Positions 1 to 61,446 of a DNA stretch of 64,000 bases are shown in pieces (positions within the stretch are counted from its first letter, which is position 1; each line of letters begins with the position of its first letter). The stretch is from Chiloscyllium plagiosum (Eukaryota), in contig NC_057754.1 of the NCBI RefSeq assembly GCF_004010195.1, positions 10,920,911-10,984,910 on the forward strand, in the 5' to 3' direction. The position numbers were made by a program, and so were the translations under genes. The notes beneath the pieces were generated by a model. The model saw nothing but the letters and a program-made list of their open reading frames with translations, was not told the DNA's origin and did not search any database.

Positions 1-330
1 CCCCACCTTGTCTCAGTCAAATCCCTCGAACTCAGCACCGCCTTCCTAACCTGCAATCTTCTTCCTGACCTCTCCACCCCCACCCCACTCCGGCCTATCA
101 CCCTCACCTTGACCTCCTTCCACCTATTGCATTTCCAACGCCCCTCCCCCAAGTCCCTCCTCCCGACCTTTTATCTTAGCCTGCTGGACACACTTTCCTC
201 ATTCCTGAAGAAGGGCTCATGCCCGAAACGTCGATTCTCCTGCTCCTTGGATGCTGCCTGACCTGCTGCGCTTTTCCAGCAACACATTTTCAGCTCTGAT
301 CTCCAGCATCTGCAGTCCTCACTTTCTCCT
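1..330 (+). mobile_element. Penelope-like element 3' end/pseudo-LTR (family A) with minimal hammerhead motif at 205-232
   Basis: C-rich 3' UTR, then CTGAAGA-A-GGGC-TCAT-GCCC-GAAAC-GTC and the conserved tail ending ctgcagtcctcactttctcc. The same repeat follows a Penelope-type endonuclease C-terminus at 34768-35260. Confidence 0.8.
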
Positions 331-339
331 CGAGGACAA

Positions 340-760
340 GCTATCTGAGGAGCAGCACTCCAAAAACTTGTACTTCCAAATAAACCTGATGGACTATAAC
401 CTGGTGTTGTGTGACTTTTAACTTGATCCTTTTAATTTTGTCCAGCCTAATCCAACATCCACATCTTTAAAAAAATGACATCTCAGCTCAGACAATGCAT
501 TAAAGGTGTGAGGTTTGAGTCTGTCTGTATTCCAGCCTGAGTCTGACGGGTTCTATTTCCAAAGTAGGAATTTATAAACTGTCACATGGACTGACTGCTT
601 AAAGACTGTGTGCTTTTTGAACAAAATAGAATGTATCTGTAAATACAAATGTGCAAATGCAAATTCACCCCACTTATTTGTGTGCGTGCGTGTGTGTGAC
701 CGAGCGAGTGTATGAGGGAGTGAGAGAGAGTGTGTGTGCATGTGTATGTAGCATTGATGA
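340..760. mobile_element. Penelope-like family B fragments plus GT/GA microsatellite
   Basis: ggactataacctggtgttgtgtga (391-414) matches the repeats at 20050-20140 and 26195-26421; 500-560 resembles 20295-20340. Confidence 0.55.
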
Positions 761-1469: not shown

Positions 1470-2700
1470 CTGGTTACAATCTAATTGCTGAGTCAGGATA
1501 TTGTGAGTTCAATCACCCCATCCAGAGTCTTCACCATAAAATTTTGGATAATATTCTGATGCAGGACTGAGGGAGCACTGCACTGTCAGAAATCCGTCAT
1601 TCAGAGGGAACCTTTAGATGTAGCCACATCTGCCCTCACAGGTGGACATCAAAGATCCCATGATGTTGTGATGATGCAGTTCCTTTAGCAAGGTTATGTT
1701 GTCCTTGGTTTTTTACAAAAAGGGTTGTAAAAGGCAGAGGTTCCAATTTGTCTGGGGTTTGTGGTCTTTGCTTATGGCTAACAGATACTGTCCAAGCCAG
1801 GGAAAAGGCTTTTAGTTTCTTTTAAAACAGTTGTACAAAGAAAGGGGAGTGGCCCGTTCCAGGATTTTTCTAGTTTCGTTTAGTTTCAGCTAGGGACTGA
1901 GAGACACAGCTGCAGTGGAAAGAGGTTTAGCAAATGATCCCTGGTTGATCCTCTCTCTCTCTCCCTCTCTCTCTGACATCTCTCCTGTAAGAACTTGTGT
2001 TTGAGTTTACCTTTTTGCCAAGTGGTGTATTTATTGGATGCTGTGGGAATTGGAGCAGCTCTTTGTTAAGTTGCAGGGGATATTGTGTCAGTCGGGTTTT
2101 CAAATCATTCTTATTCAAACTTCTGTTTTCTTTTGTTTGTGTTTCCTTTGATGGTGTGTAAATACATTTTATTTTACTTGAAGCCAAATGGTCTGACCAG
2201 CTGCATCACTCCTGGAATATCCACCTTACATCTGGCTGAAGCAACTAGAAAAGTCAGGGGCTGGGCTAACTTCTTAAAATGTTTAGAGGGGGTCTGGCCT
2301 GATGAAGGGCTTTTGCCCGAAACGTCGATTTTACTGCTCCTCAGATGCTGCTGAGCTGCTGTGCTTTTCCAGCACCATTCTAATGTAGACTCTGGTTTCC
2401 AGCATCTGCAGTCATTGTTTTTACCTGATAAATAACCATGCTATTTCAAAGAACAGGGCAGGGCTCAGATTTACTGTCCAATGTACACCCTTCAATAATC
2501 ACCACTGAACTGAGTGTCTGTCACAGCCAGGTTTCTGTTGCGAACTCGGTTTCTCTCCCTACAGATACTGCCTGACCTGCAGGGTATTTCCACCATCTTA
2601 TTTCTGTTTGTTGCACCCAATCTAGCTGCTGTATCTCCTTCAACAGTAACGACACTTCACAAGGGCTTTCAGTTGTTGTGAAACACATTAGGACATTCTG
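1470..2700 (+). mobile_element. Old Deu-domain SINE (SacSINE1-like), split by an LTR
   Basis: gcaggactgagggagcactgcactgtcaga...ctgccctcacaggtggacatcaaagatcccatg (1561-1661) resumes as gctatttcaaagaacagggcagg at ~2440. Recognised from memory of the Deu domain. Confidence 0.55.
1667..2438. mobile_element. Solo LTR-like element containing a Penelope family A fragment (2299-2425)
   Basis: Starts TGTG; its right end (gggtctggcct...ataac) is the reverse complement of the TGTTATGG...CCAGACCC start of the LTRs at 49511 and 60253. Intact hammerhead core at 2299-2326. Confidence 0.6.
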
Positions 2701-4618: not shown

Positions 4619-4816
4619 ACGTGGAATTTTATCATATCTGCTCTTGTTGCTAAAATGAATAAGCCATGCGTTGATTTTCCCACAATTTTGTTATAAAAGA
4701 CTGTAATCTGAATAATTCTTTGGAGCTGCTTCCTATATGGTTATAGGACCTCTTCCCATCATAATTAAGAAAAATAAAATTGGTTTTGGACAAAGAAGTC
4801 ATTTGTCTAGCCTTTG

Positions 4817-5020
4817 AGGAGAAAGTGAGGTCTGCATATGCTGGAGATCAGAGCTGAAAATGTGTTGCTGGAAAAGCGCAGCAGGTCAGGCAGCATCCAG
4901 GGAACAGGAGAATCGACGTTTCGGGCATAAGCCTGAAGAAGGGCTTATGCCCGAAACGTCGATTCTCCTGTTCCCTGGGTGCTGTGTGACCTGCTGCGCT
5001 TTTCCAGCAACACATTTTCA
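4817..5020. mobile_element. Inverted Penelope family A pseudo-LTR pair, 14-bp TSD
   Basis: Arms ~4854-4933 and ~4941-5020 are reverse complements; atttgtctagcctt at 4801-4814 and 5021-5034; intact hammerhead core at 4933-4960. Confidence 0.85.
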
Positions 5021-5068
5021 GATTTGTCTAGCCTTGTTTGGGATCAGTGAAAACTTCGATGGTTATTT

Positions 5069-5391: not shown

Positions 5392-7698
5392 ATTAGAGGT
5401 TTGCTGGAGCTCTTTGGGAGGGTTTAAACTAGTTTGGCAGGGGGATATGAATGGTACTATGGATCAGAGGACGGGGTAGCTGGGGAACAGACAGATACAG
5501 CGTGCAAAGAGTCTGTGAGGAAGGATAGACAGTTAATAGGAAAAGTTGCAGTCAGTGTGATGTATTGAAGTATGTCTATTTTAACACAAGAAGTATCAGG
5601 AATAAGGATATTGAACTTAGACCATGGATCAGTACTTGGAGCTACGCTGTTGTGGCCATTACAGTGACTTGGATATCACAGGAGATGGAACAGTTGTTGG
5701 ATATTCCACAGTTTGGATATTTCAAAAGGAATAGGGAGGGAGGTAAAAGAGGTGGGGGAAGTGGCATTGCTAATCAGGGATAGTATAACAGCTAGGCAAA
5801 AGTGAGGACTGCAGATGCTGGAAACCAGAGTTTAGATCAGAATGGTGCTGGAAAAGCACAGCAGGTCAGACAGCATCTGAGGAGCAGGAAAATTGACGTT
5901 TTGGGCAAAAGCCCTTCATCAGGAATAGAGGAGTAGTATAATAGCTGCAGAAAGGGAGATCCTTGATGATGGTCTGTCTACTGAGTCAGTATGGGTGGAA
6001 GTCAGAAACAGGAAAGGAGCAGTCACTTTATTGGGAGTTTTCCATAGAACTCCCAGTAGCAACAGAGACATGGAGGAGCAGCTTGGGAGACAGATTTTGG
6101 AAAGGTGCAGAAGTAACAGAGTTGTTGTCATGGGTGACTTCTACTTCCCTAATATTGATTGGAACCTCCTTAGTGCAAATAGTTTGGATGGAGCAGATTT
6201 TGTCAGATGTGTCTAGGAAGGATTCTGGACTCAGTATGTAGATCGGCCGACTAGATGGGAGGCCACATTGGATTTGGTGCTTAGCAACGAACCAGATCAG
6301 GTGTCAGATCTCTCAGTGGGAAAGCGTTTTGGTGATAATGATCACAACTCCCTGACCTTTAATTCTTTGAGTGATAGAAGCAGACAGTGTGAGAAAGTAT
6401 TTAATTGGGGAGGGGGAATTACAATGCTATTAGGCAGGAACTGTGGAGCATAAATTGGGATCAGGTATTCTCAGGGAATTGCATGACAGAAATGTGGAGG
6501 TTGTTTAGGGAGCACTTGCTGCAAGTGCTGGATAGATTGGTCCCGTTGAGGCAAGGAAGGGATGGTACGGTGAAGGAACCTTAGACGATAAGAGATGTGG
6601 AACATCTAGACAAGAGGAAGGAAGCTAACTTAATTTTGCGGAAGCAAGAATCAGACAGGGCTTTAGAGGGTTACAAGGTCACCATGAAGGAACTGAAGAA
6701 TGGACTAAGGGGGGGGGGGGGGGGCATGAGAAAGCCTTGGCGGGTAGGATTAAGGAAAACCCCAAGGCATTCTACACTTATGTGAGGAACAAGAGGATGA
6801 CCAGAGTGAGGGTAAGGTGTATCAGGGTTAGTGGAGGGAATTTGCACCTGGAGTTGGAGGAGGTAGGGGAGACCCTTATTGAATACTTTGCTTCAGTATT
6901 CGCTGGTGAGAAGGACCTTCTCATTTGTGAGGACAGTATGAAACATGCTGATATGTTCAAACAGGTTGATGTTAAGAAGGAGGATGTGTTGGAGAAACTT
7001 TGAGAAGTATGAGGATATATAAGTCCCCTGGCCCAGATGGAATGTACCCAAGGTTACTACAGGAAGCTAGGGAAGATATTGCTGCATCTTTGGCGATGAT
7101 CTTTGCATCCACAATGTCCATTGGAGTAGCACCACGTGATTGGAAGGTGGCAAATGTTATTCCCTTGTTCAAGAAAGGGAATAAGAATAGCCCTGGGAAT
7201 TACAGTTCAGTCAGTCTTATGTTGGTGGTGGGCAAATTATTGGAGAGGATTCTGAGAGACAGGATTTATGATTATTTGGAAAACTATAGTTTGATTAGAA
7301 ATAGTCAGCATGGCTTTGTGAGGAGAAGGTCATGCCTTACAAGCCTTATTGAATTATTTGAGGATGTGACAAAACATATTAATGAAAGTAGAGCTGTGTA
7401 TATGGATTTTAGCAAGGGGTTTGATGAGGTACCCCATGGTAGGCTCATTCAGAAAGTAAGGAGGCATGGGGTTTCAGGGAAATTTGACTGTCTGCATACA
7501 GAATTAGCTGGCTCATAGAAGACAGAAGGTGGTAGTAGATGGAAAGTATTCAGCCTGGACTTCGGTGACCAGTAGTGTTCCACAGAGATCGGTTCTGGGA
7601 CCTCTGCTGTTTGTGATTTTTATGAATGACTTGGATGAGGAAGCAGAAGGGTAGGTTCGTAAGTTAGCTGAAAACACAAAAATTGGTGGTGTTGTGGA
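5392..7698 (+). mobile_element. Decayed CR1 LINE ORF2 (APE endonuclease + RT), 3'-truncated; Penelope fragment inserted at 5794-5933
   Basis: YFNTRSIRNK, VVVMGDFYFPNIDW, KSPGPDGMYPRLLQE, QHGFVRRRSCLTSL, YMDFSKGFD; many stops and frameshifts. Confidence 0.92.
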
Positions 7699-7699
7699 T

Positions 7700-10600
7700 A
7701 TTTTCCATGCAGTCACATCATTCCTCACATATGCCTTCTCCCTCTTCTTGTTCTCTGGACTCTGGGAGTTTAGTTGTGAGGTTAACTGGGCTGGCCCAAA
7801 CAAAGTGGAGATTGAGGGCTTCTAAGACTGCTGTCCAGTGGATCCACCTAGCTGCTGTTACTTACAATACTCTATTCATTGACAGTGGAACATGTACTGT
7901 GGTGGGACACTTGACAGTTAATTTTTGGTGAGGACCAAATCTGCGATGCCCAGTATGGCTGGGCATATGGCTTCCATAGCACTCAAACAGCTTCCCCATC
8001 CCAGTTCTACTGCATCCAGTTCTGCTGAGTAGTATTCAATAGGTCTTTGTAAATCTCCGTATTCTTACATCAGTACTGCTGTCATGTATCTTCTTTATCA
8101 TTTACAAAAAGGGTAAATGGCTTCCCATTTCAGGAATTCCCAAAGGTGATGCAGAGCATAAGATCTTTGTAGATTCCTGAAAGGCTTTTGTTGCTCCTCT
8201 GTGAGGGTGATAACGTCCTTTGATGTTCTCTTGCCCTTTAAGAGATCGCTCAGAAGCTTTGCTAGTTGTGTGTAGGAGTCGATCTAGTTTCTGTTAAAAT
8301 CCTAAAAAAAGATCTGAATTCCTGGATAATACTGGGTTCTTGGGTCTTCCGAATTGCGGCAATTCTGTCCTGGGTAAGTTCTCTTTTTCTCTCTGAAATC
8401 TTTTGTCCCAAATACACAACCTCTTCCTGCAACACTTGAGCCTTGTTAAAATTGGCTTTATGTCCTTAGGAGTACAAGTGGTCCAGCAGGATTCGCAGAT
8501 CCTGTTCATGCTGTTCCTCTGTATTGGAGGTGAATAGAATATCATCCACGCTCTGAATAAGTGTAAAAGGCATAGTGGGCGAAGGGCTTATGCCCGAAAC
8601 GTCGATTCTCCTGTTCGCTGGATGCTGCCTGACCTGCTGCGCTTTTCCAGCAACACATTTTCAGCTCCTCTGTATTGGAGGTGAATAGAATATCATCCAC
8701 GCTCTGAATAAGTGTAAAAGGCATAGTGGGTAATTCTCGCAAGTGATTTTACAGGCCATATGAATTATAGTAGGACTGCTGTGGAAACCCGGTGTACTGT
8801 TGTTTCTGGTTCATGAGGGCAAACTACCATTGGACTTCAGGTGCCAAGGGTATCAACCAGAATCAATTGGCCACATCTATCACTGCAAAGGATTTATGTT
8901 CTGATGTGAGAGCATTAAAAATGGTCATGAGATCCGTGACCAAAAAGCTTTCTGATCAATGCATTGGCTGGCCCTCTGTAGTCGATGATCTGGCACCAAG
9001 TAATGAAGGGCTTATGCCCAAAACATTGATTCTCCTGCTCTTTGGATGCTGCCTGACCTGCTGTGATTTTCCAGCATCACACTCATGACTCTGACTCCAG
9101 CATCTGCAGTTCTCACTTTCTCCTGTTGCCAAGTAATGTCAGGTTTCCTCACCCACCATACAGGGCTGGTGGAGGAGCTGTGTGTTTTTACCAATATGCC
9201 TTTTTCTTCCAGTTGTCACATGACAGGCAAGTACCCGACAATTGAGACTGGGTTAATGGGATATTGTTTGGCGCTTGGAGAGGTGACTCTGGTGAATGGT
9301 GCTGGTTCCATTTGGAGCAAGCTACAATTGTTCTTACCTTTTGCCCAGATTGGGTGGTCTCTTAACTTTGCCTTTTTCATGCATCTTATAGACCAGGTCA
9401 TTTTACCATCTTCAAAGTGCAAGTAAGAGTTTATCTGGGTCAGAAATGTTCATTCCCAAGACAGCCTGTTCCACTAGTCCTACCGAAATCCAAGTTGTTC
9501 ATTCTTGCGAGTCCAATTCATTGGGCACCAGACATGTTCACAGTAAGACTTTCAATCCCCACTCTACATACTGTTAGTGTTTTCCTGTCTAAGGGCAGCC
9601 TTTGTCCATAATAGAGGTAAACAGGTTAATTCCGCTCCAGTATCCAAAAGACAATCTATTTCTTGGTTGGCCACCCTAATTAAGATATCAGTTCCATCCC
9701 TCTATTGTTGCACTAGAGCTATCTGGGGTATGGTAAGTGAGAGGGTGGGCTCTCCTCGCTTTTTGTTATCTTCAACATTTCCTTCTCTCATTCTGCAGTC
9801 ATAACCTTTCTCCTATTCACAATTGTTCTGGAGAAGGGTTTGATCCTGATTTAGAGTTGCCTGCGCACCACCTTGGTGATCTCATCACTTGGCCCTACAA
9901 GTCTTGAAGAAAGTGAGGACTGCAGATCAGGAATGAAGAAGAGCTTATGCTCAAAGTGTTGACTCTCCTGCTTCTCGGATGCTGCCTGACCAGCTGTGCT
10001 TTCCGGCACCTCGCTCTTCTACCCTAGAAGTCTTTGCCCTTTTTGCAGCAATGATAGCGTTTGTTGGGGGTCCTTCCTCACAGTTGTTTCTCACTTGGTT
10101 TTCCCCCTGTGACTTGCATTACTTTTAGCTCAGCACTTATGTCCCTGTCCAGCCTATGGCACCGACAGATCAGACTTCCCACTGTCACTAAATGGTCCTT
10201 CCAGTCATGATGGGCTACTTGCAACATTTAGCTAGTTCCTGCTTCAGTCCTGTCACAAAGACAGCCTTTAGTCATCCCACACTGCTGTCATCCAAGTCAT
10301 TGGGTATCCTAATGTCAAATCCAGAGTGATCTGACCATGCCACCTTAAACCTTTTGAAATAATGAAGTGGACCCTCACACATATTTTTAATATATACCAT
10401 CAGCTTTGTCCAGTCCATCTCAAAACCAATTCCGATCCCATCTCAATGATGTTCGTTCTCGCCCAATCCTTTCCACGCTATCCTATTCAATCTTTTTCCT
10501 TCACTAAGAGGCATCAGCATTGACAATACTTGGACCCCATCTATCATGTGCAGTTTGTAAATACTCCTCAGCCATTCCGGTTGCTCCAATGTTTTCATCC

Positions 10601-11080: not shown

Positions 11081-11139
11081 AAGAGTGTGTTATAATTTCG
11101 TTTTGCTGTCAGACCTGTCCCTTAAGGGCAAGGGACCAT

Positions 11140-14955: not shown

Positions 14956-15597
14956 TCTTCGTAATCTCCATCCTGCACTGACACAGATTGAGTTTATAAA
15001 CTTAAAATAATGTAGCCTTTGAGAAAGATTAAACAGATTGGGGCATTTAAGGAAAACTGAGCAGTGACCTATTAATGCAGTTTAAAATGCTCAATGTTTT
15101 GGATAGGGGTCAATATGTAGAGAATGTTTCCACATGAAATTTCTTCACTCAGTTAATGATTAAAATGTGGAATTCACAGCAAATAGTGCAGACAGAGAGA
15201 GAGATATGTTCAAAAGTAGACTCAATAAACCTGACAGGGAGATGGGATAAGAAAAATAAGTCAGAAGACAGATGAGATGAAGAGAATGGGAGAGGAAACA
15301 TACATCAGAAGAGTAATTAGACTGAAAAGCATTTTTGTTTCTTTCATATTCTAAGTATTCCATATTAAACATTTTTTGCAGGGTATTCAGAAGTTTGTAC
15401 TTATATCCAGAAGGTGAACCAATGCATCATATCAAAATCTGACAAAGTCATTCAGTTAATTAGAATCTGAACATCATCAGCTTCTGAAGAAACACTTCAT
15501 GTAAGAAAAGATTTTAAACATCAGTGTGACTGCAAAACTGCCAAGACACACATACCCGAGGGAGAGTGTTCCAGTGAACATACTGTGGAAAGAGTAG

Positions 15598-15725
15598 GAG
15601 AAAGTGAGGACTGCAAATGCTGGAGTACCAGAGTTGAAAAATGTGGTGCTGGAAAAACACAGCAGGCCAGGCAGCATCCGAGGAGCAGGAGAGTCGACAT
15701 TTCGGGCATAAGCCCTTCTTCAGGA
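15598..15725 (-). mobile_element. Penelope family A pseudo-LTR
   Basis: Minus strand CTGAAGAAGGGCTTATGCCCGAAATGTC plus conserved tail. Confidence 0.85.
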
Positions 15726-15872
15726 ATGGGGCAGGACAGTGTCAAGGTATTCAGAGATGGGGACAGGACAGTGTCGAGGTATGCAGAGATGGGGACAGGA
15801 CAGTGTCGAGGTATGCAGAGATGGGGACAGGACAGTGTCGAGGTATGCAGGGACAGAACAGTGTCGAGGTAG
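15726..15872. repeat. 32-bp minisatellite, ~4.5 copies
   Basis: Unit atggggacaggacagtgtcgaggtatgcagag at 15757, 15789, 15821 with degenerate flanking copies. Confidence 0.95.
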
Positions 15873-16635
15873 GCATGGAAAGAGTAGCCCAGCTACTCAG
15901 CCTGAAAAATAATTACACCATCCACAATGGGGAGAGACCATCAATGTGTTCTATCTGTGGAAATCAATTTCAGTCAATCACTGAAGTTGGAAAGAATCAA
16001 GGACACTGACACTATGGAGAAACTGTGGGAATGTTGGGACTGTGGGAAGGGATTCAGTTACCCAGCAGGGTTGGAAAGTCATCAACCCATTAAGCTGTTC
16101 CATCTGTGGGAAGGGATTCACTCAGTCATCCACCCTCTGCATACGCCAGGTTCACAATGGGAGAAGCCATTCACCTGCAGGGAGGGAATTAATGCTCTTT
16201 CAACCCTCTGGATTCATGAGCAGGTGCACTCTGATGAAAGACTGTTTGAATATTCTGACTGTGAGAAGAGTTTTAAAAACAGAAAGGATATATTGATACA
16301 TCAACACAGTCACACTGGGGAGAGAACATTCAGCTGTAATGTTTGTGGAAAAGGATTCATTCAGTCATCTCAGCTCCTGATACACCAACTTATTCACACT
16401 GATAACAGACCTTTTAGAAGTACTGACTGTGAGAAGAGCTTTAAAAGTAAAAAAGATTTACTGAACCACCAATGTGCTCTAACTGGGGAGAAACATTCAT
16501 CTGCTCCGTTTGTAGAAAGGGATTCACTAGTTCATCCTAACTTAAAACACACACTGATGAGACACCTTTTGGATGTCCTGATTGTGAAAAGAAATTAAAC
16601 ACTCACACTGGGAAGAGGCCATTCCTCAGCTCTGT

Positions 16636-17125: not shown

Positions 17126-17231
17126 AAACGAAACTGATTAGGATCTTTCCAGGATTGGAGAATTGTGGCTGTGAGGAAAGAATGGATAGGCTGGGGATAT
17201 TTTCTAGGTGGAAGCGAAGACTGCACCTGTT

Positions 17232-17440
17232 GGAGATTAGAGTCGAGAGTGTGGTGCTGGAAAAGCACAGCAGGTCAGACAGCATCCAAGGAGCCGGAAA
17301 ATCAACATTTTGTTCAAAGTTTGTGCGAAGATTTGTAGCTCGGGTGCTCGTTGCTGTGGTTCTGTTTGCTGAAAAACTTCCAGCTCGGCGAACAGAACCA
17401 CAGCAATCAACATTTTGGGCAAAAGCCCTTCAAGAGGAAT
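17232..17440 (-). mobile_element. Penelope family A fragment with a nested mini inverted Penelope-like end (17313-17404)
   Basis: TSD aatcaacattttg at 17300-17312 and 17405-17417; inner arms ttgctgtggttctgtttgctga / tcggcgaacagaaccacagcaa. Confidence 0.75.
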
Positions 17441-19740: not shown

Positions 19741-20049
19741 ACAATGTTTGGTTACCACAGAACATATCTTTCAGATAATTGCCAAATGATGCAAAGTGAA
19801 AATGTGAAGATTGTGTGAATCTGGAAACAGACTGAACGTCAGGCTGAATGCAGATTTAGCAGTTACTCTCAAAAGAGATTTGATATTTAACTTTTCAAGG
19901 AAAGATTTGCAGGCTTATGGCAAAGGCAAGAGAATCCAGTAGATTTACAGCAATTCTCAACTGAGAAAGTACAGCTCCAATGGGCTGAATGGCCACCAGA
20001 CCATGTGCTGTGATACTGCACTGTGAATAATGAAGCTCATTCGAGGGCA

Positions 20050-20345
20050 AAGTTAAAAATCACACAACACCAGGTTATAGTCCAACAGGTTTATTTAGAA
20101 GCACTAGCTTTCAGAGTGCCGCTCCTTCATCAGGTGGCTGTGGAGGTTAAGATCATGCTCACAGAATTTATAGCCAAAGGATTAGATTAGAACTTTCATT
20201 TTTTATAATGGGACATGCTGGTTTCTGTTCTTTGATATGTAAATCCCAGAACTTCTTTTAAATTACATTCCCAAGACAGCTCTGGTTTTTAAACAATAGG
20301 TGTGAAGTCTGTCTGTGTCCCAAAGCTATGTCAGACTGACAAACC
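20050..20345 (-). mobile_element. Penelope-like family B pseudo-LTR with hammerhead motif (~20102-20136)
   Basis: Minus strand CAC-CTGATGA-A-GGAGCGGCACTCT-GAAAGCTA-GTG. Confidence 0.75.
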
Positions 20346-21004: not shown

Positions 21005-21180
21005 GAAACACACACTTGCCAAATAACACTTGCCTCCTCTCAGCCTAGTATAAATACCTCCCTATTTCTCCCTTTTTTTAGCTTTGACAAAGGGTCAGTT
21101 AGACTCGAAACGTCAGCTCTTTTCTCTCCTGACAGATGTTGCCAGACCTGCTGAGATTTTCCAGCATTTTCTCATTTGGT
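21005..21180 (+). mobile_element. Penelope-like family D terminal repeat with variant hammerhead (21080-21118)
   Basis: AGCT-TTGACAA-A-GGGTC-AGTTA-GACTC-GAAAC-GTC-AGCT, followed by the shared ccagacctgctgag...tttccagca tail. Confidence 0.65.
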
Positions 21181-21437
21181 GTCAAAATAACACGTCAGCT
21201 CTTTGAGAGATCAGTCACATACTTAATAATTTTAGCCTATATATTCCCCATTCTCAAATACCTGCAAAATTCCCTTTAAAATTCCTTATCGGCTTGAATT
21301 CCATCATCATTTCAGGTGATTCCAGATCCCGACAATTCTATTTATCCTGAACCTGCTGAAGTTCATGTTGAATCCAGAAGGTTATACTGTGCTAAACTGA
21401 AAGATGAGCTGCATTGCAACGTTTAGAATAGGACATC

Positions 21438-21765: not shown

Positions 21766-21779
21766 CACACCATTTTTCA

Positions 21780-22854: not shown

Positions 22855-22948
22855 GTCAAAAAGTGTGATGCTGGAAAAGCACAGCCAGTCAGGCAGCATT
22901 CCAGGAGCAGGAGAGTCGACGTTTCAAGCATAAGCTCTTCATCAGGTA
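22855..22948 (-). mobile_element. Penelope family A fragment with intact hammerhead core
   Basis: Minus strand CTGATGA-A-GAGC-TTAT-GCTT-GAAAC-GTC. Confidence 0.75.
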
Positions 22949-23269
22949 TTTGAGTCAAACTGCTTAGTCAAAGAAAGACTCACAGAGAAACACTGAACAA
23001 AATGGGGTCAGAGTCTCTGATATAAAATTGTGAAACTCAATGTCCCCATCGTATCCATGCTAGTCATCAAGCAGCTATTTATTCTCGTACCACTTTCCAG
23101 TATTCAGTGTGTAACCGATATTGCAGTGCCTTATATGATGATCTAAACATTTCTTCAAAGTTGCAATTGTTCCTGCATCTGTTACTATTTAAGATGCTGC
23201 CAGACCTGCTGAATGTCTCTAGCATTTTCTGATTTTATTTCGGATTTCCATACTTTATTTAAGCACTTA

Positions 23270-25395: not shown

Positions 25396-25944
25396 GAAGA
25401 AAAATCTGCTGACACAGTCAAGGTTGGCCTTAATAGGTTAACGAGGAACCTTTATGAAATCGACCTGTGCACTGAGATATACTGTAGATGACTGCCTCTG
25501 GCTTTTTTTTTGAAAGGATAGCTAAGTATGAATGTTTGAGGGACAGCACGAAGAGACTGAATTGTTAACAATATGTTTAGAGAGAATACGGTCAGTGGAA
25601 CAAATTTGGGTCTCATGGACAAGACAAGCTCTGACAGAGGTAAACTGGAAAAAGCTGTGGGGTCAAGCACAGAGGAACTTGACAGGCAGTTTGATGCAGT
25701 GAGCTAGTGGGACAGGAGCAGTAGCAGTAGTTGATCAGATTGTCTCAATCTTAGTGGCGACTAAGCTCCTTGATCTCTTCACACTTGTTGTTGAAGGAAA
25801 GAAGGGAGAGGGAGAGTCTTCAAAAGGGACTTATTTGTGTTGGAGATATTAAAAAGACTCATGACGCTGGGTTTAACACAAAGCGAATTCATGCGAGTTT
25901 TATTCTGAATATTCACACCAAAAGCCGTTCATCAGGATTCCTGA

Positions 25945-26082
25945 TTCTATTCCTGATGAAGGGCTTTTGCCCAAAACATCAATTTTCCTGCTCCTCGGGT
26001 GCTGCCTGACCTGCTGTGCTTTACCAGCATCACTCTGATCTAAACTCTGGTTTCCAGCATCTGCAGTCCTCACTTTTGCCTA
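25945..26082 (+). mobile_element. Penelope family A pseudo-LTR, mutated core
   Basis: CTGATGAAGGGCTTTTGCCCAAAACATC plus tail. Confidence 0.8.
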
Positions 26083-26084: not shown

Positions 26085-26490
26085 CCACTTTGTGTGAACT
26101 CACTGGTATATGGTGAGGGCAAATGATTGTCTGAACCCAGTCCTGCAGTGAGAGCACATGAATTGTCTCTCCTCTGTATGAATTCATTGGTGGGAAAGTT
26201 ATAAATCTCACAACACCAGGTTATAGTCCAACAGGTTTAATTGGAAGCACTAGCTTTCAGAGCGCCACTCCTTCATCAGGTGGTTGTTGCACCACCTGAT
26301 GAAGGAGCGACGCTCTGAAAGCCCTGTGCTTCCAATTAAACCTGTTGGACTAAAACCTGGTGTTGTGTGATTTGTAACTTTGTACACCTCAGTCCAACCC
26401 CGGCATCTCCAAATCATGACTACATTGGTGGGAAATCATATCACTGAGATTTCCACAGCACTATTTCCAGTCTTGGCAGAGAAAGCTGAT
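26085..26490 (-). pseudogene. ZNF pseudogene fragment split by a Penelope insertion
   Basis: Minus strand [32 protein letters not shown]. Confidence 0.65.
26195..26421. mobile_element. Inverted Penelope family B pseudo-LTR pair, 13-bp TSD
   Basis: Arms 26195-26285 and ~26291-26381, ~40-nt one-sided tail; cattggtgggaaa at 26185-26197 and 26423-26435. Confidence 0.85.
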
Positions 26491-26810: not shown

Positions 26811-26999
26811 AATTGTCTTGATCTCAGTGACAACAAAGCTCTTCACACTTCTTGTTAAAAGGTGAAGATAGGGGGTGGGGAGCTGGAGAACAATTTAGAA
26901 TACACTGTGTAAGAAACAGACATCAATAAATACGGTTCATTCCTGGGTGTGATTAATCGCTGTAGTTAGTTAACTAACTAATCGCTGTAGTTAGTTGTG

Positions 27000-34737: not shown

Positions 34738-34767
34738 GTTTTAGGTATGTCTTTCTTAGATAAATTT

Positions 34768-35260
34768 AGAACTGAAGATGCTGGAATCCAAAGTAGACAA
34801 GCAGGAGGCTGGAGATGCACAGCAAGCCTGGCAGCATCAGGAAGTGGAGAAGTCAATGCTTTTGGGTATAGCCCTTCTTCACAAAAGGAGGTGGGGGTAG
34901 GGGGAGCAACAGATAAAGAGAGGGGCAGAGTGGTGAGGTAGTGATAGGTGAATATGGGTGGTAGGTACCACCTGCTAGGTTGATAGGAGGAATGAATCCA
35001 GTTGGTAGCTGGAAGGAGGGATTGGTCAGAGGAATGGGAGGGACGAGGCGAGTTTGGAAAGGTAGTTCGGGATGGGTGAGAAGGTTATTTCAAATTGGAG
35101 AACGCAATGTTGAGCCCTTTGGGCTGCCTGCTGCTCAGGTGAAAGATGAGATATTATCCCTCCAATTTGCTGTCTGATTCACTATGGCAATGGAGGAGAC
35201 TGAGGATGGACATGCTGGAGAGGGAGTGGGAACAGGAATTGAAATGGGCGGTGACCGGGA
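34768..35260 (-). mobile_element. Penelope-like element 3' end (endonuclease C-terminus + family A-like repeat)
   Basis: Minus 35213->35087 reads MSILSLLHCHSESDSKLEG*YLIFHLSSRQPKGLNIAFSNLK*, with the PxGLN ending typical of PLE GIY-YIG domains. Confidence 0.8.
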
Positions 35261-35261
35261 G

Positions 35262-35550
35262 TGAATATTATGCACAATTCGGGTGTCCTTCCTATCAGAA
35301 GGGTGTTGTGAAACTTGAAAGGGTTCAGAAAAGATTTACAAGGATGTTGCCAGGGTTGGAGTATTTGAGCTTTTGGGAGAGGCTGAATAAGCTGGGGCTG
35401 CTTTCCTGGGAGCATTGGGGGCTGAGGGGTGACCTTAGGGAGGTTTATAAAATCATGAGGGACATGGACAGGATAAATAGACAAAGTCTTTTCCCTGGGG
35501 TAAGGGAGTCCAGAACTAGAGGGCATAGGTTTAGGGTGAGAGGGGAAAGA
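35262..35550 (+). mobile_element. CR1 LINE fragment
   Basis: VVKLERVQKRFTRMLPGLEYLSF. Confidence 0.88.
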
Positions 35551-35711
35551 CACAATGTAGGATATACTTCACCTGACAGTAGAGGTTTCCCAATATTTAA
35601 GCCCGCCAGACTATTCAAAATCTCTCTCTCAGCTAATTTCTTTAAATTTGATGACAGTCCTTCTTTCTGATTCGTCTCTCTCACGAGGGAACACTGACAC
35701 ATAATATTCAT

Positions 35712-36171
35712 GTAGGTTTGCTCGGTGAGCTGTAGGTTTGATATCCAGACATTTCATTACCTGGCTAGGTAACATCATCAGTGGCGACCTCCAAGTGAAG
35801 CGAAGCTGTTGTCTCCTGCTTTCTATTTATATGTTTGTCCTGGATGGGGTTCCTGGGGTTTGAGGTGATGTCATTTCCTGTTCATTCCTAGAGGCCTGGC
35901 ACTCCAACCACAACGCCATAAACAAAGACATAGATCTTAGATACCATCTATCAACCCCTCAGAAAACAAACAGGAAATGACATCACCACAAACCCCAGGA
36001 ACCCCATCCAGGTCATACATGTAAATGGAAAGCAGGAGACAACAGCTTCGCTTCACTTGGAGGTTGCCACTGATGATGTTACCCAGCCAGGTAATGAAAC
36101 ATCTGGATATCAAACCTACACCTCAGCGAGCAAACCTGCACCCTAAACCTCAACCTGAGATACAAACCTTG
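35712..36171. mobile_element. Inverted Penelope family C pseudo-LTR pair around an endonuclease C-terminal remnant, 14-bp TSD
   Basis: ~170-bp arms 35712-35882 and ~35969-36139; centre encodes FLEAWHSNHNAINKDIDL; cacataatattcat at 35698-35711 and 36172-36185; hammerhead motif in each arm. Confidence 0.9.
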
Positions 36172-36249
36172 CACATAATATTCATTTACAAATTACTGCT
36201 ATTTGTAAGTAATGGGCCTCACTCTTTCCCCAGTTATCCATTAACCATT

Positions 36250-38466: not shown

Positions 38467-38849
38467 AATCCTGAGATAATTAGGTTATGATAAACAGAGT
38501 CACTGTCAAATCTGGATGTGGTTTCATGTGAAGTATCTAATTGAAAAACAACCTTTTAAACACAAATGTATTGGGAGAAACCCGAAGAACACACAGGTTG
38601 TGAAATTGAGAGCAATTAATTCAGTCAGTTGTAGAGATGACACTGAGGGAAACTGCTGGATTGTCATTACAACCAAACTGGTTCATAAATATCCTTCAGG
38701 GAAGCGAACCAGTCTGTTTGCATGAAACTACAGAAAAAGATGAGAGAGACAGGTATGAAGGAGATGCATTTTACAATCTACAATTCAACCCTGTTCCTGT
38801 TTTCTCCCCATATATTTCAATAGCTCCGAAAGGCTAAAAATAATTGCAG

Positions 38850-48734: not shown

Positions 48735-48806
48735 TCCTTGGTGGTTGAGTGGTTAAGATTTTGTGCTTTCACCACTACGGCCAAGGTTCGATTCCTTGTC
48801 GACAAA
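48735..48806 (+). pseudogene. tRNA-Glu(TTC) pseudogene
   Basis: TCCTTGGTGGTTGAGTGGTTAAGATTTTGTGCT-TTC-ACCACTACGGCCAAGGTTCGATTCCTTGTC is colinear with vertebrate tRNA-Glu; B box intact; acceptor and anticodon stems mismatched. Confidence 0.82.
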
Positions 48807-52506: not shown

Positions 52507-53408
52507 TTAACGTTTGAAGAATCTGATATAGATGGTGAATGGATACTTTATCACCACCTTAAGCTCCTCTCTAAACTTGTTCTGAGATACAGCGTAGATG
52601 AAGATGTTGTTGCAGGAGCTGAGTAACTGGAGCATGTTGGTAGTCTCTGAAAGGATGTACTGTGGGTCTTTGAAATTCTGGCTGTTGAAATAACCTGCAC
52701 CTCGAACTCGCACGTAGAGGAAACGCCCGACCTGGGTAGCCCACAGGAGAAGGAAACTGAGTGAGACGGCAAACAGCAGGACAATGGACCTCTTGCGATT
52801 CACCATCTCCGAATCTTGGCAGTTCTCAACACCTCGAAGCCTCTGCCTGGATCTGTTGGCCCATAAGATGTGCTTTATAGTCAAAGCATTGAGAAGAAAA
52901 ATGAGAATGAATGGGAAAATGGGGGTTAAGATGGGGTCGAGCATGTCGTAGGCCTGCCAGACTGGAGAAGTGTAATAGCTGGACTTGATATCACAGAACC
53001 AGGGCACACCCCTAATCGTATACAACGGCTTGTAGATAAAGTATAAAGGGACATTCTTGATGCAACTCAGGATACAAATTGTTCCAATGACCAGTGATGC
53101 AGATTTCTCAGTGCAGTATCTGATCTTCAAGTTCTGGCAGCAGATGGCAACAAAACGATCGATGGTGAAGGCCACTGTCAGCCACACTGAGCCATCTCGG
53201 GTACCATAGACTAGTACAGCGCCAAGGCTGCATACTGGTGTGGTAAACAAGACACTGTACCGAAAGTAAATGCGGCCAATCCTGTTTAGGATGACGGAAA
53301 TTATTATCACAAAGAAGTCATTGACAGCTATCACCACAAGATAGTATGTGATGCATTTGGAGAGTCCACAACGTCCTCGGGATAAAATTCCAATCGCCAG
53401 CAAATTGG
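52507..53408 (-). CDS. GPR139/GPR142-like class A GPCR, exon 2 (end of TM1 to TM7, stop)
   Basis: Hydrophobic helices, SVWLTVAFTIDRFVAIC, YCTEK, LLNALTI, NMLQLLSSCNNIFIY; polypyrimidine acceptor ttttctttctcAG at 53409-53421, phase 1. Confidence 0.92.
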
Positions 53409-53574
53409 CTGAGAAAGAAAATGAGAGAGACGTTGTTGAACTTATTCAAAACACTTACTACTGTCTCAAAACAACATGTTGCTCAAACGCACTTTCAGAC
53501 TCTTGAGTATTCAAGCTCCTCTGCTCCACCTGTTCTTTTCCTTTCTCTCTTTTTTTCTCCTTTCTACATCTTGT

Positions 53575-54559: not shown

Positions 54560-55230
54560 TGAAGCCAGGCAGAAAGAGTGGACTGCGTTGGGGTTGGAGT
54601 CAGCGGCGTGGATCATTCGGTGGCGTCAGGTGGTTCAACTGGGGGTTCGGTTTGCAACGTATTGGATTTTAGATGGGGAAATGGCAGCCTGACATAGAAT
54701 GGAAGAAGAGGCCTGTCTTACTGGGAGGCGAAGATGATTGACATTGTGAGTAAATGGACAGATTCTAGGGGTACAGCACGCCACCTTTGTTGGGGTACAA
54801 TGAACAGAATTTAGAGGATTAGCGTGGTAATTGAAGGTAGGCTGAACTTTTGGAGCAGGCAGCATGGTAACACTGGGGAGGAGATGAAGCTGCAGGAAGA
54901 CTGGAAATGGGAGACAGAAACCGATATTGGTGGAGAAACACATAGATCGAGCAACACATTTGGGGATGCAGTACAGTTAACATTTCGAGTCCAGTCACCA
55001 TTCCATGGTCAGAGAAAGACGAGGGTAGGTATGAGAGTCTAGGAATCTGTGTGTAAGATTCTGGTAGTATATTAACAGGACAAGAACAGTGGTGTTTAAA
55101 AACTGGCCAACAAAGATTAGAGGCAGGGAGACGAGTAGCCAGATATCAGAGGGAAGGGAAAAATCCAATGTCTGTGCGAGATGGAGGGGGGGACAGGCAA
55201 AAGCCTGAGACGATATAAAATCCATAAATT
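54560..55230 (-). mobile_element. Possible very old Penelope-like endonuclease remnant
   Basis: Weak minus-strand motifs (VLVLLIYY, YCIP) across frameshifts. Confidence 0.3.
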
Positions 55231-57560: not shown

Positions 57561-60252
57561 AGCTCCCAGTGGCAGAAAATATTGCGAAAACCCGTGTTTC
57601 TAATATAATCCCAAGATTTTACCCAAAAAAAACAGCGATACCAAGACAAGAATTGTAAATTATTGAAAAGAAAGAGATTATTTGTACACTTTGCGTGTAT
57701 ATTTATAATTCAATTTATGCATTTCCAGTATTTTGTATGCATTGCATGATATAATGCTGTGAAGAGGCCAATGATAGTGTGATATTTGCGATTGCAGAAT
57801 GAAGTATTGCAAAATATTATTCAATTTGTTATGCTGCACCTTTATAAAAATGGCTTAATTAGAATGCTGCATCATGACTTCTAAATATTTAGAACACAGA
57901 ACATACAACAGTACAGCACAGTACAGGCCCACCCGTCCTCTATGTTGTGCTGAACATTTTTCCTATTCTGAGATCAAACTAACCTACATGCCCTTCGTTT
58001 TACTATCATCCACGTGCCTATCCAAGAGTCGCTTAAATATCCCTAATGTATCTGACTTTACTAGCACTGCTGGCAGTGCATTCAATGCATCCACCACATG
58101 CCGTGTAAAGAACCTACCTCTGACATCCCCCCAAACCTTTCTCCAATCACCTTAAAATTATGCCCCCGCATGATAGCCACTTTTGCACTGGGAAAAAGTC
58201 TCTGGCTATCTACTCCATCTATACCAGTCATCATCTTGTACCCCTGTTTCCAGTCACCTCACATCCTTCTTTGCTCAAATGAGAAAAGACCTAGCTTCCT
58301 TAAACTTCCTTCATAAGACATGCCCTACTGTCCAGGCAGCATCCTGGTAAACCTCCTCCACAACCTCTCTGAACCTTCCACATCCTTCCTACAATGGGTT
58401 GGCCAGAACTGAACACGATATTCCAAGTGTGGTCTAACCAGTGCTAGAGAAAACTGCAGCATAACCTCGCAGGTGTTAAACTCAACAGCCCTACTAATGA
58501 AAGCCAATATACCATACTCCTTCTTAACAAAACTGTCAACTTGTGTGCCAATTTTGAGCGAACTATGGATCCCCCTGTTCCTCCACACTGCCAAGAATGC
58601 CGCCTTTAACCCTGTAATATTCAAATTAAATAAATTCCAAAATAAATCACTTCACACTTTTCCAGGTTGAACTCCATCTGCCACTTCTCATCACAGGTCT
58701 GCATCCTGTCAACCTACAACAGCCCTCCACAGTATTCACAACTCCACCAATCTCCGTGTCATCGGTGAACTTAATAACACACCCTTCCACTTCCTCATCC
58801 AAGTCAGTTATAAAAACCACAAAAAGCAGAGATCCCAGAACAGATTCCAGCAGAACACCACTGATCACCGAACTCCAGATTGAATTATTCTCCATACGAT
58901 CACGCTTTGCCTTCTATGGGTCGGCCAAGTCTGTATCCAGCCAGCCATATTTCCCTGTATCACATGCCCCCTTCCTTTTTGAGTGAGCCTACCATGGGGA
59001 AAGCCTTGCTAAAATCCATATAAAATCCACTTGCATTGCTTTACCTTCATCAATGTGTTTTGTTACATCTTCAAAGAATTTAATAAGGCTTGTAAGGCAA
59101 GAACTGCTCCTCCATGCTGACCAATCAAACTATGTTTTTCCAAACAAGCATAAAACCTGTATCTCAAAATCCTCTCCCAGAATTTGCAAACCATTGACGT
59201 CAGACTCACTGCTCCATAATTCTCAGCGGTATTCCTATTCCTCTTCTTGAACAAGGGAATATCATTTGCCAATCTGCAATCATCAGGTACTATTCCAGTG
59301 GACAGCGAGGAGCAGAAATCATTGCCACAGGCGACACAATCTCTTCCTTCGCTCCGTAGTAACCTTGGGTATATCCTGTCATGCTCAGGGGTCTTATCTA
59401 TCCTCATGTTTTTCAAATTTCCAGCACATCCTTCTTCTTATTATCCACCTTTTCGAGCATATCAGCCTGTTTCACACTGTCCTCACAAACCACAACAAAC
59501 CTCTCACTGGTGAATGCTGAAGCAATGTATTCATTGCAGAACTCCTCTACCTCCTCCAATTCCAAGAACAAGTTTGCACCACTATCCCTGATTGTCCTTC
59601 CTCTCACTCTCACTATCCTCTTGTTCTTGACATTAATGTAGAATGCCTTGAGGTTTTTCTTAATCCTAACCACCAAGGTTTTAAAATACCTCCTTCTAGC
59701 TCTCCTAAGTCCATTCTTCAGTTTTGTTTTGGCTCCCTTGTAACCCACTAGAGGCCTGTCTGATTCTTGCATCCTCAACCTTAAGTCAGCTTCCTTCTTC
59801 CTCTTGATGAGTAGTTCCACATCTCTTGTCATCCTTCGCCCTGTCATCTCTTCCTTGCCTCAGTGGGACAAACCTATCCAGCAGTCGCAGGAAGCACTCC
59901 CTAATCAAGTTCCACATTTCTGTCGTGCATTTCCTTGAGAGTATCTATTCCCAACTTTTGCTCCACAGTTCCTGCCTAATAGCATTGTAATTCACCCTCG
60001 CGCAATTGAATATTTCCCCATACAGTCTGCTCCTATCTCTCTCCATGACTATAGTAAAGGTCAGGGACTCGTGATCACTATCACTGAAATGCTTTCCCAT
60101 TGACAGATCTGGCATCTGACCTGGTTTGTTGCCCAGAATCAAATCCAATATGGCCTCCTCTCAAATCGACTTATCTACGTATGGAGTCAGAAATCCTTCC
60201 TGGACGCACCAAACAAAAACTGCTCCATCCAAACTATTTGCACTAATGAGGT

Positions 60253-61446
60253 TGTTATGGAGGAGGCCCAGACCCTCAAACCATTTTAAAGCAGCTATCC
60301 CAGACCGTAACTTTACTATTTATTTCAGGTCAGTGTATAGTGGACCTTCCCAGAGTCAATTGGCTGGTCAAACTGCCGAGATTTAAACAAACAAAACGTA
60401 TTTACAAGATTACGGAATGAATCACAAAGAACAGGAAATAGAATACCGGAGAACATATCCAATCCAAAAACCCGATAGAATATTCCAACTTAATGATGCT
60501 ATTCCGAAGAAACTTGCAACATTGCCCATAAATTGGGCACAAATGTTAAAATGAAACACAGGCCTGCAGGTTTTAAGCCAAAGAGAGAGAGAGAGAGAGG
60601 CAGAGAGAGAACCAGGCTGGACTTGTTTCCAGCGGGGCAAAAGTGAGGACTGCAGGAGCTGGAGATCAGAGTCTAGATTAGAGTGGTGCAGGAAAGTCAC
60701 AGCAGGTCAGGCAGCATCCGAGGAGCAGGAAAATCGACGTTTTGGGCAAAAGCCCTTCATCAGGAATGAAGGACGGAGTCTCCAGGGCGGAGAGATAAAT
60801 GGGAGGGGATGGGGCTGGGGAGAAGGTAGCCAAGAGTACAATAGGTGAATGGAGGTAGGGATGAAGGTGATAGGTCAGAGAGGAGGGTGAAGCAGATAGG
60901 TGGGAAGGAAGATTGGCAGGTAGGAAGAGCTTCAGGGCAGAGGAGATGACCTGGGGGTTGCAGTGAGAGAGAGACTCACTGAGATTCTTGTAGAGAGAGG
61001 AGGAGAATGTCTTCAAGGTAGGCAGCCTTGCAAGAGGTTTCGCAGTAAGGTTAAAATCAACTAGGTAAAAACAATGACTGCAGATGCTGGAGACCAGAGT
61101 CTAGATTAGAGTGGTGCTGGGAAGGCACAGCAGATCAGGCAGCATCCGAGAAGCAGGAAAATCGATGTTTCGGGCAAATGCTTCCAGTAGCCTTTCTTCA
61201 CACACTCCTGCTGAACTAAACCCATGGAGAAACTTTGTTTTCAGAAGTGGTCACTCCCCATTCATTATTCAAGTTTGTTTAGTAAAACATAAAAGCCTCT
61301 GCCTGAGGCAGCATCTGCTAGCTACAAACCAAAAGGTCCTCGATAATCTATTCAAACCCAGTCTATTTGGAACCTGGCCAATTACCCCCTCACTGAAAAA
61401 AAACTCAAGTGCACAGTAACTTTGAGAAAGGACCAGCTTTGTGACA
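60253..61446. mobile_element. Solo LTR (TG...CA) with 4-bp TSD AGGT
   Basis: aggt at 60249-60252 and 61447-61450; removing it restores the CR1 endonuclease sequence. Confidence 0.9.
60635..61180 (-). mobile_element. Non-autonomous Penelope family A derivative with direct terminal repeats
   Basis: ~105-nt repeats at ~60647-60750 and ~61075-61178 around a ~300-nt core with no recognisable protein domain. Confidence 0.8.

What the first reader, a model, noticed from the sequence alone, without database searches (positions are those of the whole stretch)
205..61180. Four sequence families of minimal hammerhead ribozyme motifs with covarying stems, dispersed across the window
Seen: about 20 intact, mutated or partial copies of CUGANGA-N-[stem II]-GAAA-palindrome-NUH. 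Family A has stem II GGGC/GCCC and GAAACGUC (cores intact at 205-232, 2299-2326, 4933-4960, and ~22918-22944 on minus with GAGC/GCUU). Family B has GGAG/CUCU and GAAAGCUA with stem I CAC/GUG (~20102, ~26249, ~26293). Family C has UUACC/GGUAA and stem I CCA/UGG (~35735, ~36068). Family D has GGGUC/GACUC (21080). Stems differ in sequence but keep pairing; stem III is reduced to a 4-nt palindrome (ACGU or AGCU); every family has one extra nucleotide between A9 and stem II. Established: Penelope-like elements carry minimal type I hammerheads with palindromic stem III thought to act as dimers, and an extra A9/G10.1 nucleotide is tolerated in viroid hammerheads. Inference: this genome holds a very large, diverse pool of potential self-cleaving motifs. 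Family A stem I is only ~2 bp, so its activity is uncertain.
Basis: partly seen in the sequence, partly recalled or inferred. Interest (0 to 1): 0.72.

Follow-up and report, generated by a model that had tools for sequence, protein, structure and literature searches.

The report
Shark Penelope-element minimal hammerhead relics
This stretch of likely shark DNA holds 23 copies, mostly broken, of a small motif that is predicted to be a self-cutting RNA and sits in the tail ends of Penelope-like jumping genes, a kind already described in 2014, so the catch is correct but ordinary.

Summary
Real but known. A strict minimal-hammerhead descriptor finds 6 motifs against a mean of 0.005 in shuffles. 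A seventh, family D, has a U3-A8 core. With broken copies there are 23. They are the 3' pseudo-LTR ends of Penelope-like elements (PLEs): one copy lies 200 nt behind a GIY-YIG endonuclease remnant with elasmobranch relatives, and insertions show target-site duplications, 5' inversions and the 35-40-nt optional tail. In 80 loci encoding the same endonuclease, 28 carry a near-identical hammerhead 82-168 nt downstream, with covarying stem I; two hold RT and GIY-YIG in one frame. Cervera and de la Pena 2014 describe the motif, extra nucleotide, palindrome, U3-A8 variant and a Neptune example much like families A/D. Most copies are decaying: catalytic G12 is mutated in 6 of 14 family A copies, and only 4 of 23 keep core plus a stem I of 2 bp or more. 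Twelve of 15 family A copies begin at the motif's front edge and none at the cut site. The scan already reported all of this elsewhere in this genome. Cleavage is untested.

The parts
1..331 (+). Family A PLE 3' end with at least 200 nt of upstream UTR; complete min-HHR at 205-232 (predicted cut after 232), stem I 2 bp, long (tailed) 3' end
345..429 (+). Family B stub, 5' part of core missing; AATAAA at 379-384
2298..2427 (+). Family A stub; core intact 2299-2326, 5' arm of stem I lost
4815..5021 (.). Family A head-to-head pair: inverted tailed copy (-) plus short forward copy with intact core 4933-4960 (+); 14-bp target-site duplication 4801-4814 / 5022-5035
5794..5933 (-). Family A stub, G12A; 13-bp TSD with 1 mismatch
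8580..8665 (+). Family A stub beginning inside the core, short 3' end; flanked by a perfect 65-bp direct repeat (8515-8579 / 8666-8730)
9006..9128 (+). Family A stub, decayed; 10-bp TSD
9908..10021 (+). Family A stub (GAGC/GCUC stem II variant) with an inverted piece of the tail at its 5' end; 13-bp TSD with 1 mismatch
15596..15745 (-). Family A copy, palindrome broken; 32-bp minisatellite directly upstream
17204..17440 (-). Decayed family A copy split inside its hammerhead by a 92-bp insertion (17313-17404) of a further element end without a hammerhead (family E), 13-bp TSD
20043..20141 (-). Family B stub; complete min-HHR 20133->20105, stem I 3 bp
21050..21190 (+). Family D stub; min-HHR 21084-21114 with U3-A8 core, 5-bp stem II, 4-bp stem I
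22856..22949 (-). Family A stub; core intact 22945->22918 (GAGC/GCUU), stem I arm lost, short 3' end
25915..26082 (+). Family A stub, G12A and broken palindrome, with a 19-nt inverted piece of the hammerhead at its 5' end
26198..26415 (.). Family B head-to-head pair: complete min-HHR 26279->26251 (-) and a tailed copy with broken palindrome 26296-26324 (+); TSD 13 bp exact (20 with 2 mismatches)
34760..35267 (-). Old A-related copy: GIY-YIG endonuclease C-terminal remnant (35088-35267, one internal stop), about 200 nt UTR, decayed hammerhead near 34883, tail
35715..36171 (.). Family C head-to-head pair: inverted short copy (motif 35781->35748) and forward tailed copy with ORF-end remnant from 35885, UTR and motif 36070-36103; TSD 14 bp exact (17 with 1 mismatch)
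54899..55015 (-). Heavily decayed D-like copy
60636..61187 (-). Family A partial tandem: stub starting in stem II, running through the tail into an ORF start (60924-61061), then about 170 nt UTR, a G12A hammerhead at 60763 and tail; candidate 9-bp TSD with 1 mismatch

Best explanation
The motifs are minimal type I hammerhead sequences in short, mostly decayed tail-end copies of Penelope-like retrotransposons, which likely cut RNA only in the parent element, as dimers or with help from the element's protein, and are likely inert at these dispersed sites. Shown: motif anatomy and excess over chance; position behind a GIY-YIG remnant; target-site duplications, 5' inversions, partial tandem and two 3' end classes 35-40 nt apart; the same motif behind the same endonuclease in RT-bearing elements of other animals; CpG-type decay of G12. 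Inferred: families A and D belong with Neptune-type elements and family C with Penelope/Poseidon. Also inferred, by analogy with the anole element PAc: the element's protein nicks DNA and primes reverse transcription at two internal sites just behind the hammerhead, and copying usually stops near the motif's front edge, leaving 90-130-nt stubs. Because stubs carry sequence from both sides of the predicted cut and none starts at it, the templates would have been uncut RNA. Untested: cleavage by any of these sequences.
For: 6 strict hits vs 0.005 expected. The 60-aa remnant 35088-35267 has 53 relatives at E<=0.001; 5 of 6 looked up come from rays or the whale shark; 6 of 13 scanned show GIY-YIG, below Pfam's cut-off, and several carry the CX2-5CxxC linker and CCHH motif that PMC8557442 gives for Neptune-type endonucleases. 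80 loci fetched with one relative: 28 strict same-strand hammerheads, all 82-168 nt behind the endonuclease, 25 of the 73 loci with >=400 nt downstream; RVT_1 plus GIY-YIG in one frame in L064 and L066; the remnant matches the L031 frame at E 1e-10. Stem I was not part of the descriptor, yet it pairs for >=2 bp in 26 of 28 loci, and all 4 stem I pairs show two-sided changes, 0 of 500 shuffles reaching the score. TSDs at 7 of 19 units tested, against 2 of 272 cross-pairs scoring as high as the weakest of them, plus 2 found after refining edges. G12A in 6 of 14 A copies vs 1 change in 114 cells at non-CpG core positions. Cervera 2014 text and supplement row for an Acropora Neptune motif with GGGC/GCUC stem II; Frangieh 2024.
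Against: No PLE reverse transcriptase is left in the window (tblastn), and the ORF start at 60924-61061 was linked only to one uncharacterised Chiloscyllium punctatum protein, not to an RT. Family B has no coding remnant here, and family C's remnant is recognised from a recalled motif only (Pfam blank). Pfam hits for GIY-YIG and RVT_1 are mostly below the curated cut-offs. The covariation control ignores relatedness, and 'pairs with two-sided change' was not above shuffles (217 of 500). 12 of 19 units showed no TSD in the automatic test. The best hit (P0002) is a spurious repeat protein. The active dimer fold is 11-28 kcal/mol above the best predicted dimer for the three copies tested, which argues against unaided cleavage. 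No ribozyme assay was possible.
Confidence: 0.9

Rival explanations
1. The 90-130-nt units are an independent non-autonomous family (retrozyme or SINE-like) that is transcribed, self-cleaved, circularised and re-inserted on its own.
For: 12 of 15 family A copies and all 4 family B copies begin near the motif's front edge, as a defined unit would. RNA reads from a related organism cover the unit several-fold deeper than the upstream UTR. Animal retrozymes are described as PLE derivatives, also in one chondrichthyan.
Against: No head-to-tail array of these units in the window. A cleaved monomer should begin at the cut site, and none does. Three A copies and both C copies run on into UTR or ORF remnants. 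No pile-up of read starts or ends was listed (table 6; weak, see Tried and rejected).
Confidence: 0.07
2. Some dispersed copies are active, domesticated ribozymes that cut host transcripts.
For: Four copies keep core, stem II, palindrome and a stem I of 2-4 bp (205, 20133, 21084, 26279). Three intact A cores lie on the same strand within 4.8 kb.
Against: G12 is lost in 6 of 14 A copies. Monomers of this kind showed no cleavage and dimers low cleavage. The anole motif needs the element's protein. The predicted active dimer is far from the best fold. The one close same-strand pair (60636-61187) is broken in both copies.
Confidence: 0.03
3. The motif is a chance pattern, or conserved for another reason (promoter, protein-binding hairpin) with no catalytic meaning.
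For: Fold z-scores of 7 of 8 segments were unremarkable; Rfam hammerhead models did not hit; family A stem I is only 2 bp.
Against: Shuffle control; invariant core with covarying stem I across distant animals; among the 40 best-supported variant rows in reads, those inside 205-232 are only N7 (209) and loop II (218) (135 rows not shown); C3/G8 mutants abolish and the double mutant partly restores cleavage in the anole PLE.
Confidence: 0.02

Closest known systems
Minimal hammerheads (min-HHR) in the pLTRs of metazoan Penelope-like elements (Cervera and de la Pena 2014, PMC4209133; parts 1-2 of 4 of the text and a supplement search read)
   Same: Type I order, no stem III beyond a palindrome at 15.2-16.2, extra nucleotide between 9 and 10.1, G10.1 start of stem II, many sequence families per genome, mostly solo copies, opposite-strand pairs 100-700 bp apart, U3-A8 variant, 2-bp helix I in D. 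virilis. The supplement lists an Acropora digitifera Neptune motif with GGGC/GCUC stem II.
   Different: No shark or ray in the main-text parts read or in the 2 supplementary files searched (one file could not be searched). Stem II here is 4-6 bp, shorter than the 7-8 bp given for Schistosoma. Density is high: 23 copies in 64 kb.
PAc, Poseidon element of Anolis carolinensis (Frangieh et al. 2024, PMC11167929; parts 1-2 of 4 read)
   Same: Hammerhead at the pLTR-ORF junction; two internal priming sites that give an optional tail. Family C has an AUG at A9-extra-G10.1, 28 nt before the predicted cut (26 in PAc), an open frame through the tail, and 3' ends 35 nt apart.
   Different: PAc was assayed (protein-assisted cleavage, not needed for insertion in vitro); nothing here was. 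Families A and D have the ORF start well behind the tail, judged from the one run-on copy at 60924-61061.
Neptune-type EN+ PLE insertion units (Craig et al. 2021, PMC8557442; Arkhipova et al. 2013, PMC3846280; passages read)
   Same: 5' truncation, partial tandem, adjacent inverted 5'-truncated copy, 30-40-bp tail at one end, 8-10-bp-class TSDs, C-terminal GIY-YIG with CCHH and CX2-5CxxC linker in the relatives of the remnant.
   Different: No full-length copy in the window; one TSD-like repeat is 65 bp; 5' ends cluster at the hammerhead's front edge, which the passages read do not describe.
Non-LTR retrozymes (Li, Clavereau and Pollet, bioRxiv 10.64898/2026.07.22.740005; parts 1-2 of 5 and passages read)
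   Same: Type I hammerhead, PLE origin, dispersed monomers.
   Different: Defined by tandem arrays of at least two units with complete hammerheads; none in this window.

Membership tests
PLE min-HHR (Cervera 2014) | CUGANGA ... GAAA core with UH cut site, type I order (or U3-A8 variant) | tested here: met
   6 strict copies plus 1 U3-A8 copy of 23
PLE min-HHR (Cervera 2014) | [quoted passage not shown] | tested here: met
   All 6 strict hits and family D
PLE min-HHR (Cervera 2014) | Palindromic 15.2-16.2, no true helix III | tested here: met
   ACGU in A and D, AGCU in B; broken by CpG-type changes in both C copies
PLE min-HHR (Cervera 2014) | Covarying helices I and II | tested here: met
   Helix I: 4 of 4 pairs with two-sided change across 23 sequences, 0 of 500 shuffles, not corrected for relatedness. 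Helix II within family A: 1 of 4 pairs; differs between families while paired
PLE min-HHR (Cervera 2014) | Located in the pLTR behind the PLE ORF | tested here: met
   Shown for the A-related copy 34760-35267 and 28 related loci; family C by a recalled motif only; family B has no coding remnant here
PLE min-HHR (Cervera 2014) | Self-cleavage as dimer or with protein help | not testable with these tools
   No assay; predicted dimer fold unfavourable
EN+ Penelope-like element | RT and C-terminal GIY-YIG in one ORF | tested here: inconclusive
   No RT remnant in the window; met in relatives L064 and L066, Pfam scores below cut-off
EN+ Penelope-like element | Inverted 5'-truncated copy, partial tandem, optional 30-40-bp tail, TSD | tested here: met
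   3 head-to-head pairs, 1 partial tandem, ends about 35-45 nt apart, TSD at 7 of 19 units plus 2 by refined edges; joints and 3' ends in reads
Neptune clade | CX2-5CxxC linker before a CCHH GIY-YIG domain; RT phylogeny | tested here: inconclusive
   Linker and CCHH seen in relatives of the remnant, not in the window itself; no RT tree built
Non-LTR retrozyme | Tandem array of at least two units, each with a complete hammerhead | tested here: not met
   No such array in the window; rest of genome not available
Rfam hammerhead families | Match to an Rfam covariance model | tested here: not met
   No hammerhead family among 13 hits at E<=10

The most novel reading that the evidence does not exclude
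The stubs are run-off copies primed at the first, 5'-proximal pLTR of an uncut transcript that begins just ahead of the hammerhead. The shark genome would then be a natural record, many thousands of events deep, showing that hammerhead cleavage is not on the path to insertion and instead destroys or switches the RNA. An upstream hairpin predicted to bury the core in copies that keep their UTR would hold the 3' copy off.
Probability: 0.3. Interest if true: 0.45.

Novelty: new member of a known kind. Interest (0 to 1): 0.16.

Why it matters
As a class this has been in print since 2014, and this scan has reported it many times in the same genome. What remains useful is scale: sharks offer very many natural insertion products of hammerhead-bearing PLEs, which could test the open question of what the PLE hammerhead is for. 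I found no paper on these motifs in sharks in four searches, which cover open-access papers and bioRxiv only. One preprint reports retrozymes in a chondrichthyan.

Tried and rejected
Whole genome not held, so no genome-wide count in this species. Rfam: no hammerhead model; the miRNA-family hits at 4892-4984, 26253-26322 and 35851-35996 fall on the head-to-head pairs and are below gathering scores. Word-index protein search with the endonuclease remnant found nothing; the exhaustive search did. No RT link for the ORF start: longer-protein search blank, Atlas uninformative, tblastn against 80 loci blank. Exact family A and C motifs: no match in metagenome or viral contigs; P0039 found no viral locus. 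No RNA holder listed for 35700-36180. No pile-up of read starts or ends in RNA run X21: a poly(A) single-cell library from a related organism, 2 in 100 of the run read, so not evidence on cleavage. The 5- to 6-fold depth rise from 181-195 to 211-225 is confounded by subfamilies whose UTR is under 85% alike. Single-sequence folding does not single out the hammerhead fold. In one search the rows A34881, B345 and D55015 were out of register; counts of complete motifs rest on the window-wide scans. Fragments at 23191 and 39579 lie inside two copies of another repeat and 2549-2604 has no motif; none of the three is counted. Lunse et al. 2017 is not held; seen only as a citation in PMC6765202. Schostak 2008 (abstract and one section) did not let me place a transcription start relative to the hammerhead.
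Full report
Setting. The window is 43% G+C vertebrate-type DNA with LINE relics (RVT_1 hit at 6976-7515), C2H2 zinc-finger arrays, a single-exon 7TM receptor frame at 52507-53445 (-) and many short repeats. Protein relatives of two remnants come from Chiloscyllium punctatum, rays and the whale shark, so a shark is likely. No genome is held.

Observation. A strict descriptor (CUGANGA, optional extra base, stem II of 4 bp or more, GAAA, 4-nt palindrome, H17) finds 6 motifs: 205, 2299, 4933 (+) and 20133, 22945, 26279 (-). The mean in 200 shuffles is 0.005. Profile searches bring the count to 23 motif-bearing copies: A 15, B 4, C 2, D-like 2. So 7 of 23 are complete in core, stem II and palindrome. 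Only 4 of these (205, 20133, 21084, 26279) keep a stem I of 2 bp or more, because the others lost the 5' arm by truncation. Both family C copies have a broken palindrome. Families A and D share downstream sequence. Rfam has no matching model.

What carries the motifs. Upstream of the old A-related copy lies a 60-codon remnant (35088-35267, -) with one stop. An exhaustive search gave 53 relatives at E<=0.001. The top hit is a spurious repeat protein; 5 of 6 looked up are from rays or the whale shark. Six of 13 scanned show a GIY-YIG domain below Pfam's cut-off, and the longer ones carry the CX2-5CxxC linker and CCHH motif that PMC8557442 gives for Neptune-type PLE endonucleases (passages). One relative, P0054, fetched 80 loci from metagenome contigs (host animals not determined). 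In these, 28 strict same-strand hammerheads lie 82-168 nt behind the endonuclease, in 25 of the 73 loci with at least 400 nt downstream; 6 hits lie on the other strand. Their stem II and palindrome nearly match family A. L064 and L066 have RVT_1 and GIY-YIG in one frame, below curated cut-offs, and the window remnant matches the L031 frame at E 1e-10. Family C is preceded by a frameshifted remnant beginning FLEAWHS, which I recall as a Penelope/Poseidon endonuclease end; Pfam did not confirm it. Family B has no coding remnant here, and no PLE RT survives in the window.

Insertion anatomy. Three insertions are head-to-head pairs (4815-5021, 26198-26415, 35715-36171), each inside a 13-14-bp exact duplication and each with one short and one long 3' end, about 35-45 nt apart. 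One is a partial tandem whose first copy runs through the tail into an ORF start that matches an uncharacterised C. punctatum protein (60636-61187). Duplications were found automatically at 7 of 19 units, against 2 of 272 cross-pairs scoring as high as the weakest of them, and at 2 more after refining edges. These are the features listed for PLEs: 5' truncation, partial tandem, adjacent inverted copy and 30-40-bp tail. Frangieh 2024 traces the tail to two internal priming sites. In family C an AUG sits at A9-extra-G10.1, 28 nt before the predicted cut, with an open frame through the tail, much as in PAc (26 nt).

Reads. On window 1-440, three DNA runs from related organisms laid 150,320, 246,226 and 162,443 contig pieces, and one RNA run laid 4,820 reads in both directions. 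These are not copy numbers. Loose 3' ends lie at 285-286 and 329-331. The RNA run's one listed loose 5' end within family A is at 201, and opposite-strand joints start at 201-217. Among the 40 variant rows shown, those inside the motif are N7 and loop II; 135 rows were not shown.

Covariation. Within 11 family A copies stem II is paired in 44 of 44 cells, with one two-sided change in 2 copies, which is thin. I then aligned 4 of the 15 A copies (those that keep the upstream arm) with 19 of the 28 locus motifs; 6 identical repeats and 3 with a longer loop were left out. All 4 stem I pairs show two-sided changes, and 0 of 500 shuffles reach the covariation score or the share paired. The count of such pairs is not above shuffles (217 of 500), and relatedness is not corrected. 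Stem I was not in the descriptor, yet it reaches 2 bp or more in 26 of 28 loci and 3 bp or more in 22. Family A's 2 bp is at the short end, with a precedent in D. virilis.

Decay. In family A, G12 lies in a CpG and is A in 6 of 14 copies; non-CpG core positions differ in 1 of 114 cells; CpG sites in the motif and downstream decay alike (0.23 and 0.26). The source elements kept the core; the inserted copies are losing it. The active dimer fold is 11-28 kcal/mol above the best dimer for the three copies tested. The only close same-strand pair is broken in both copies.

5' ends. Twelve of 15 family A copies begin between -24 and +15 relative to C3, three run far upstream, and none begins from +16 to +60, which includes the predicted cut at +28 (the edge of the split copy at 17435 was read by eye). 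A uniform model gives P of 1e-5 to 1e-9, but the interval was chosen after seeing the data. All 4 family B copies start near the same edge. I infer that the templates were uncut RNA, in line with the PAc result that unprocessed RNA is the main substrate. Whether copying ends there because the RNA starts there, or because RT stalls at a hairpin predicted over the core in 2 of 5 copies folded, is open. I noted this before consulting earlier findings; the scan had already reported it.

Comparison and verdict. Their supplement shows an Acropora Neptune motif close to families A and D (one supplementary file could not be searched). Four searches found no paper on these motifs in sharks; subscription papers and bioRxiv supplements are not covered. 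The scan holds many earlier reports of the same thing in this genome. Verdict: correct observation, new member of a known kind, mostly inert relics; interest 0.16.

Noticed in passing
window 8515-8730: An 86-bp family A stub is flanked by a perfect 65-bp direct repeat, far longer than the 9-14-bp duplications of the other insertions.
   Followed up: partly
window 379-399 (family B): AATAAA at 379-384; 199 RNA reads of run X21 carry a poly(A) loose end behind 399, so family B ends may act as polyadenylation sites.
   Followed up: no
window 17313-17404: A 92-bp element end without a hammerhead, with a small inversion, is inserted into the hammerhead of a family A copy with a 13-bp duplication.
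   Followed up: partly
window 60749-60775 (-) and 195-213 (+): The UTR just upstream of family A is predicted to pair with the CUGANGA core (10-bp hairpin in the 60763 copy), which would block the ribozyme fold.
   Followed up: partly
reads on window 1-440: Opposite-strand joints between 3' ends (290-330, 298-330) and between family A and B ends (325-422, 328-424) point to tail-to-tail and mixed-family insertions in related genomes.
   Followed up: no
window 52507-53445 (-): Uninterrupted 312-codon frame matching the rhodopsin-family 7TM receptor model, E 1e-15.
   Followed up: no
window 37741-38484 (-), 15906-16598 (+), about 26996-27312: C2H2 zinc-finger arrays, one open for 247 codons with 7 fingers matched, others decayed.
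   Followed up: no
window 48735-48806 (+), 29383-29443 (-): tRNA-like sequences above Rfam's gathering score, probably pseudogenes; ARAGORN calls only the first.
   Followed up: no
window 44137-45337: Complex T-rich tandem-like repeat of 150-250-bp units, of unknown origin.
   Followed up: no
proteins P0005, P0044: PLE endonuclease C-termini are annotated as parts of host proteins in rays (neuromedin-U receptor 1, NYAP1-like), either exonisation or gene-prediction artefacts.
   Followed up: no
L001:1955-2215, L003:3427-3687: Related loci whose motif reads CAGAUGA in place of CUGAUGA at the core.
   Followed up: no
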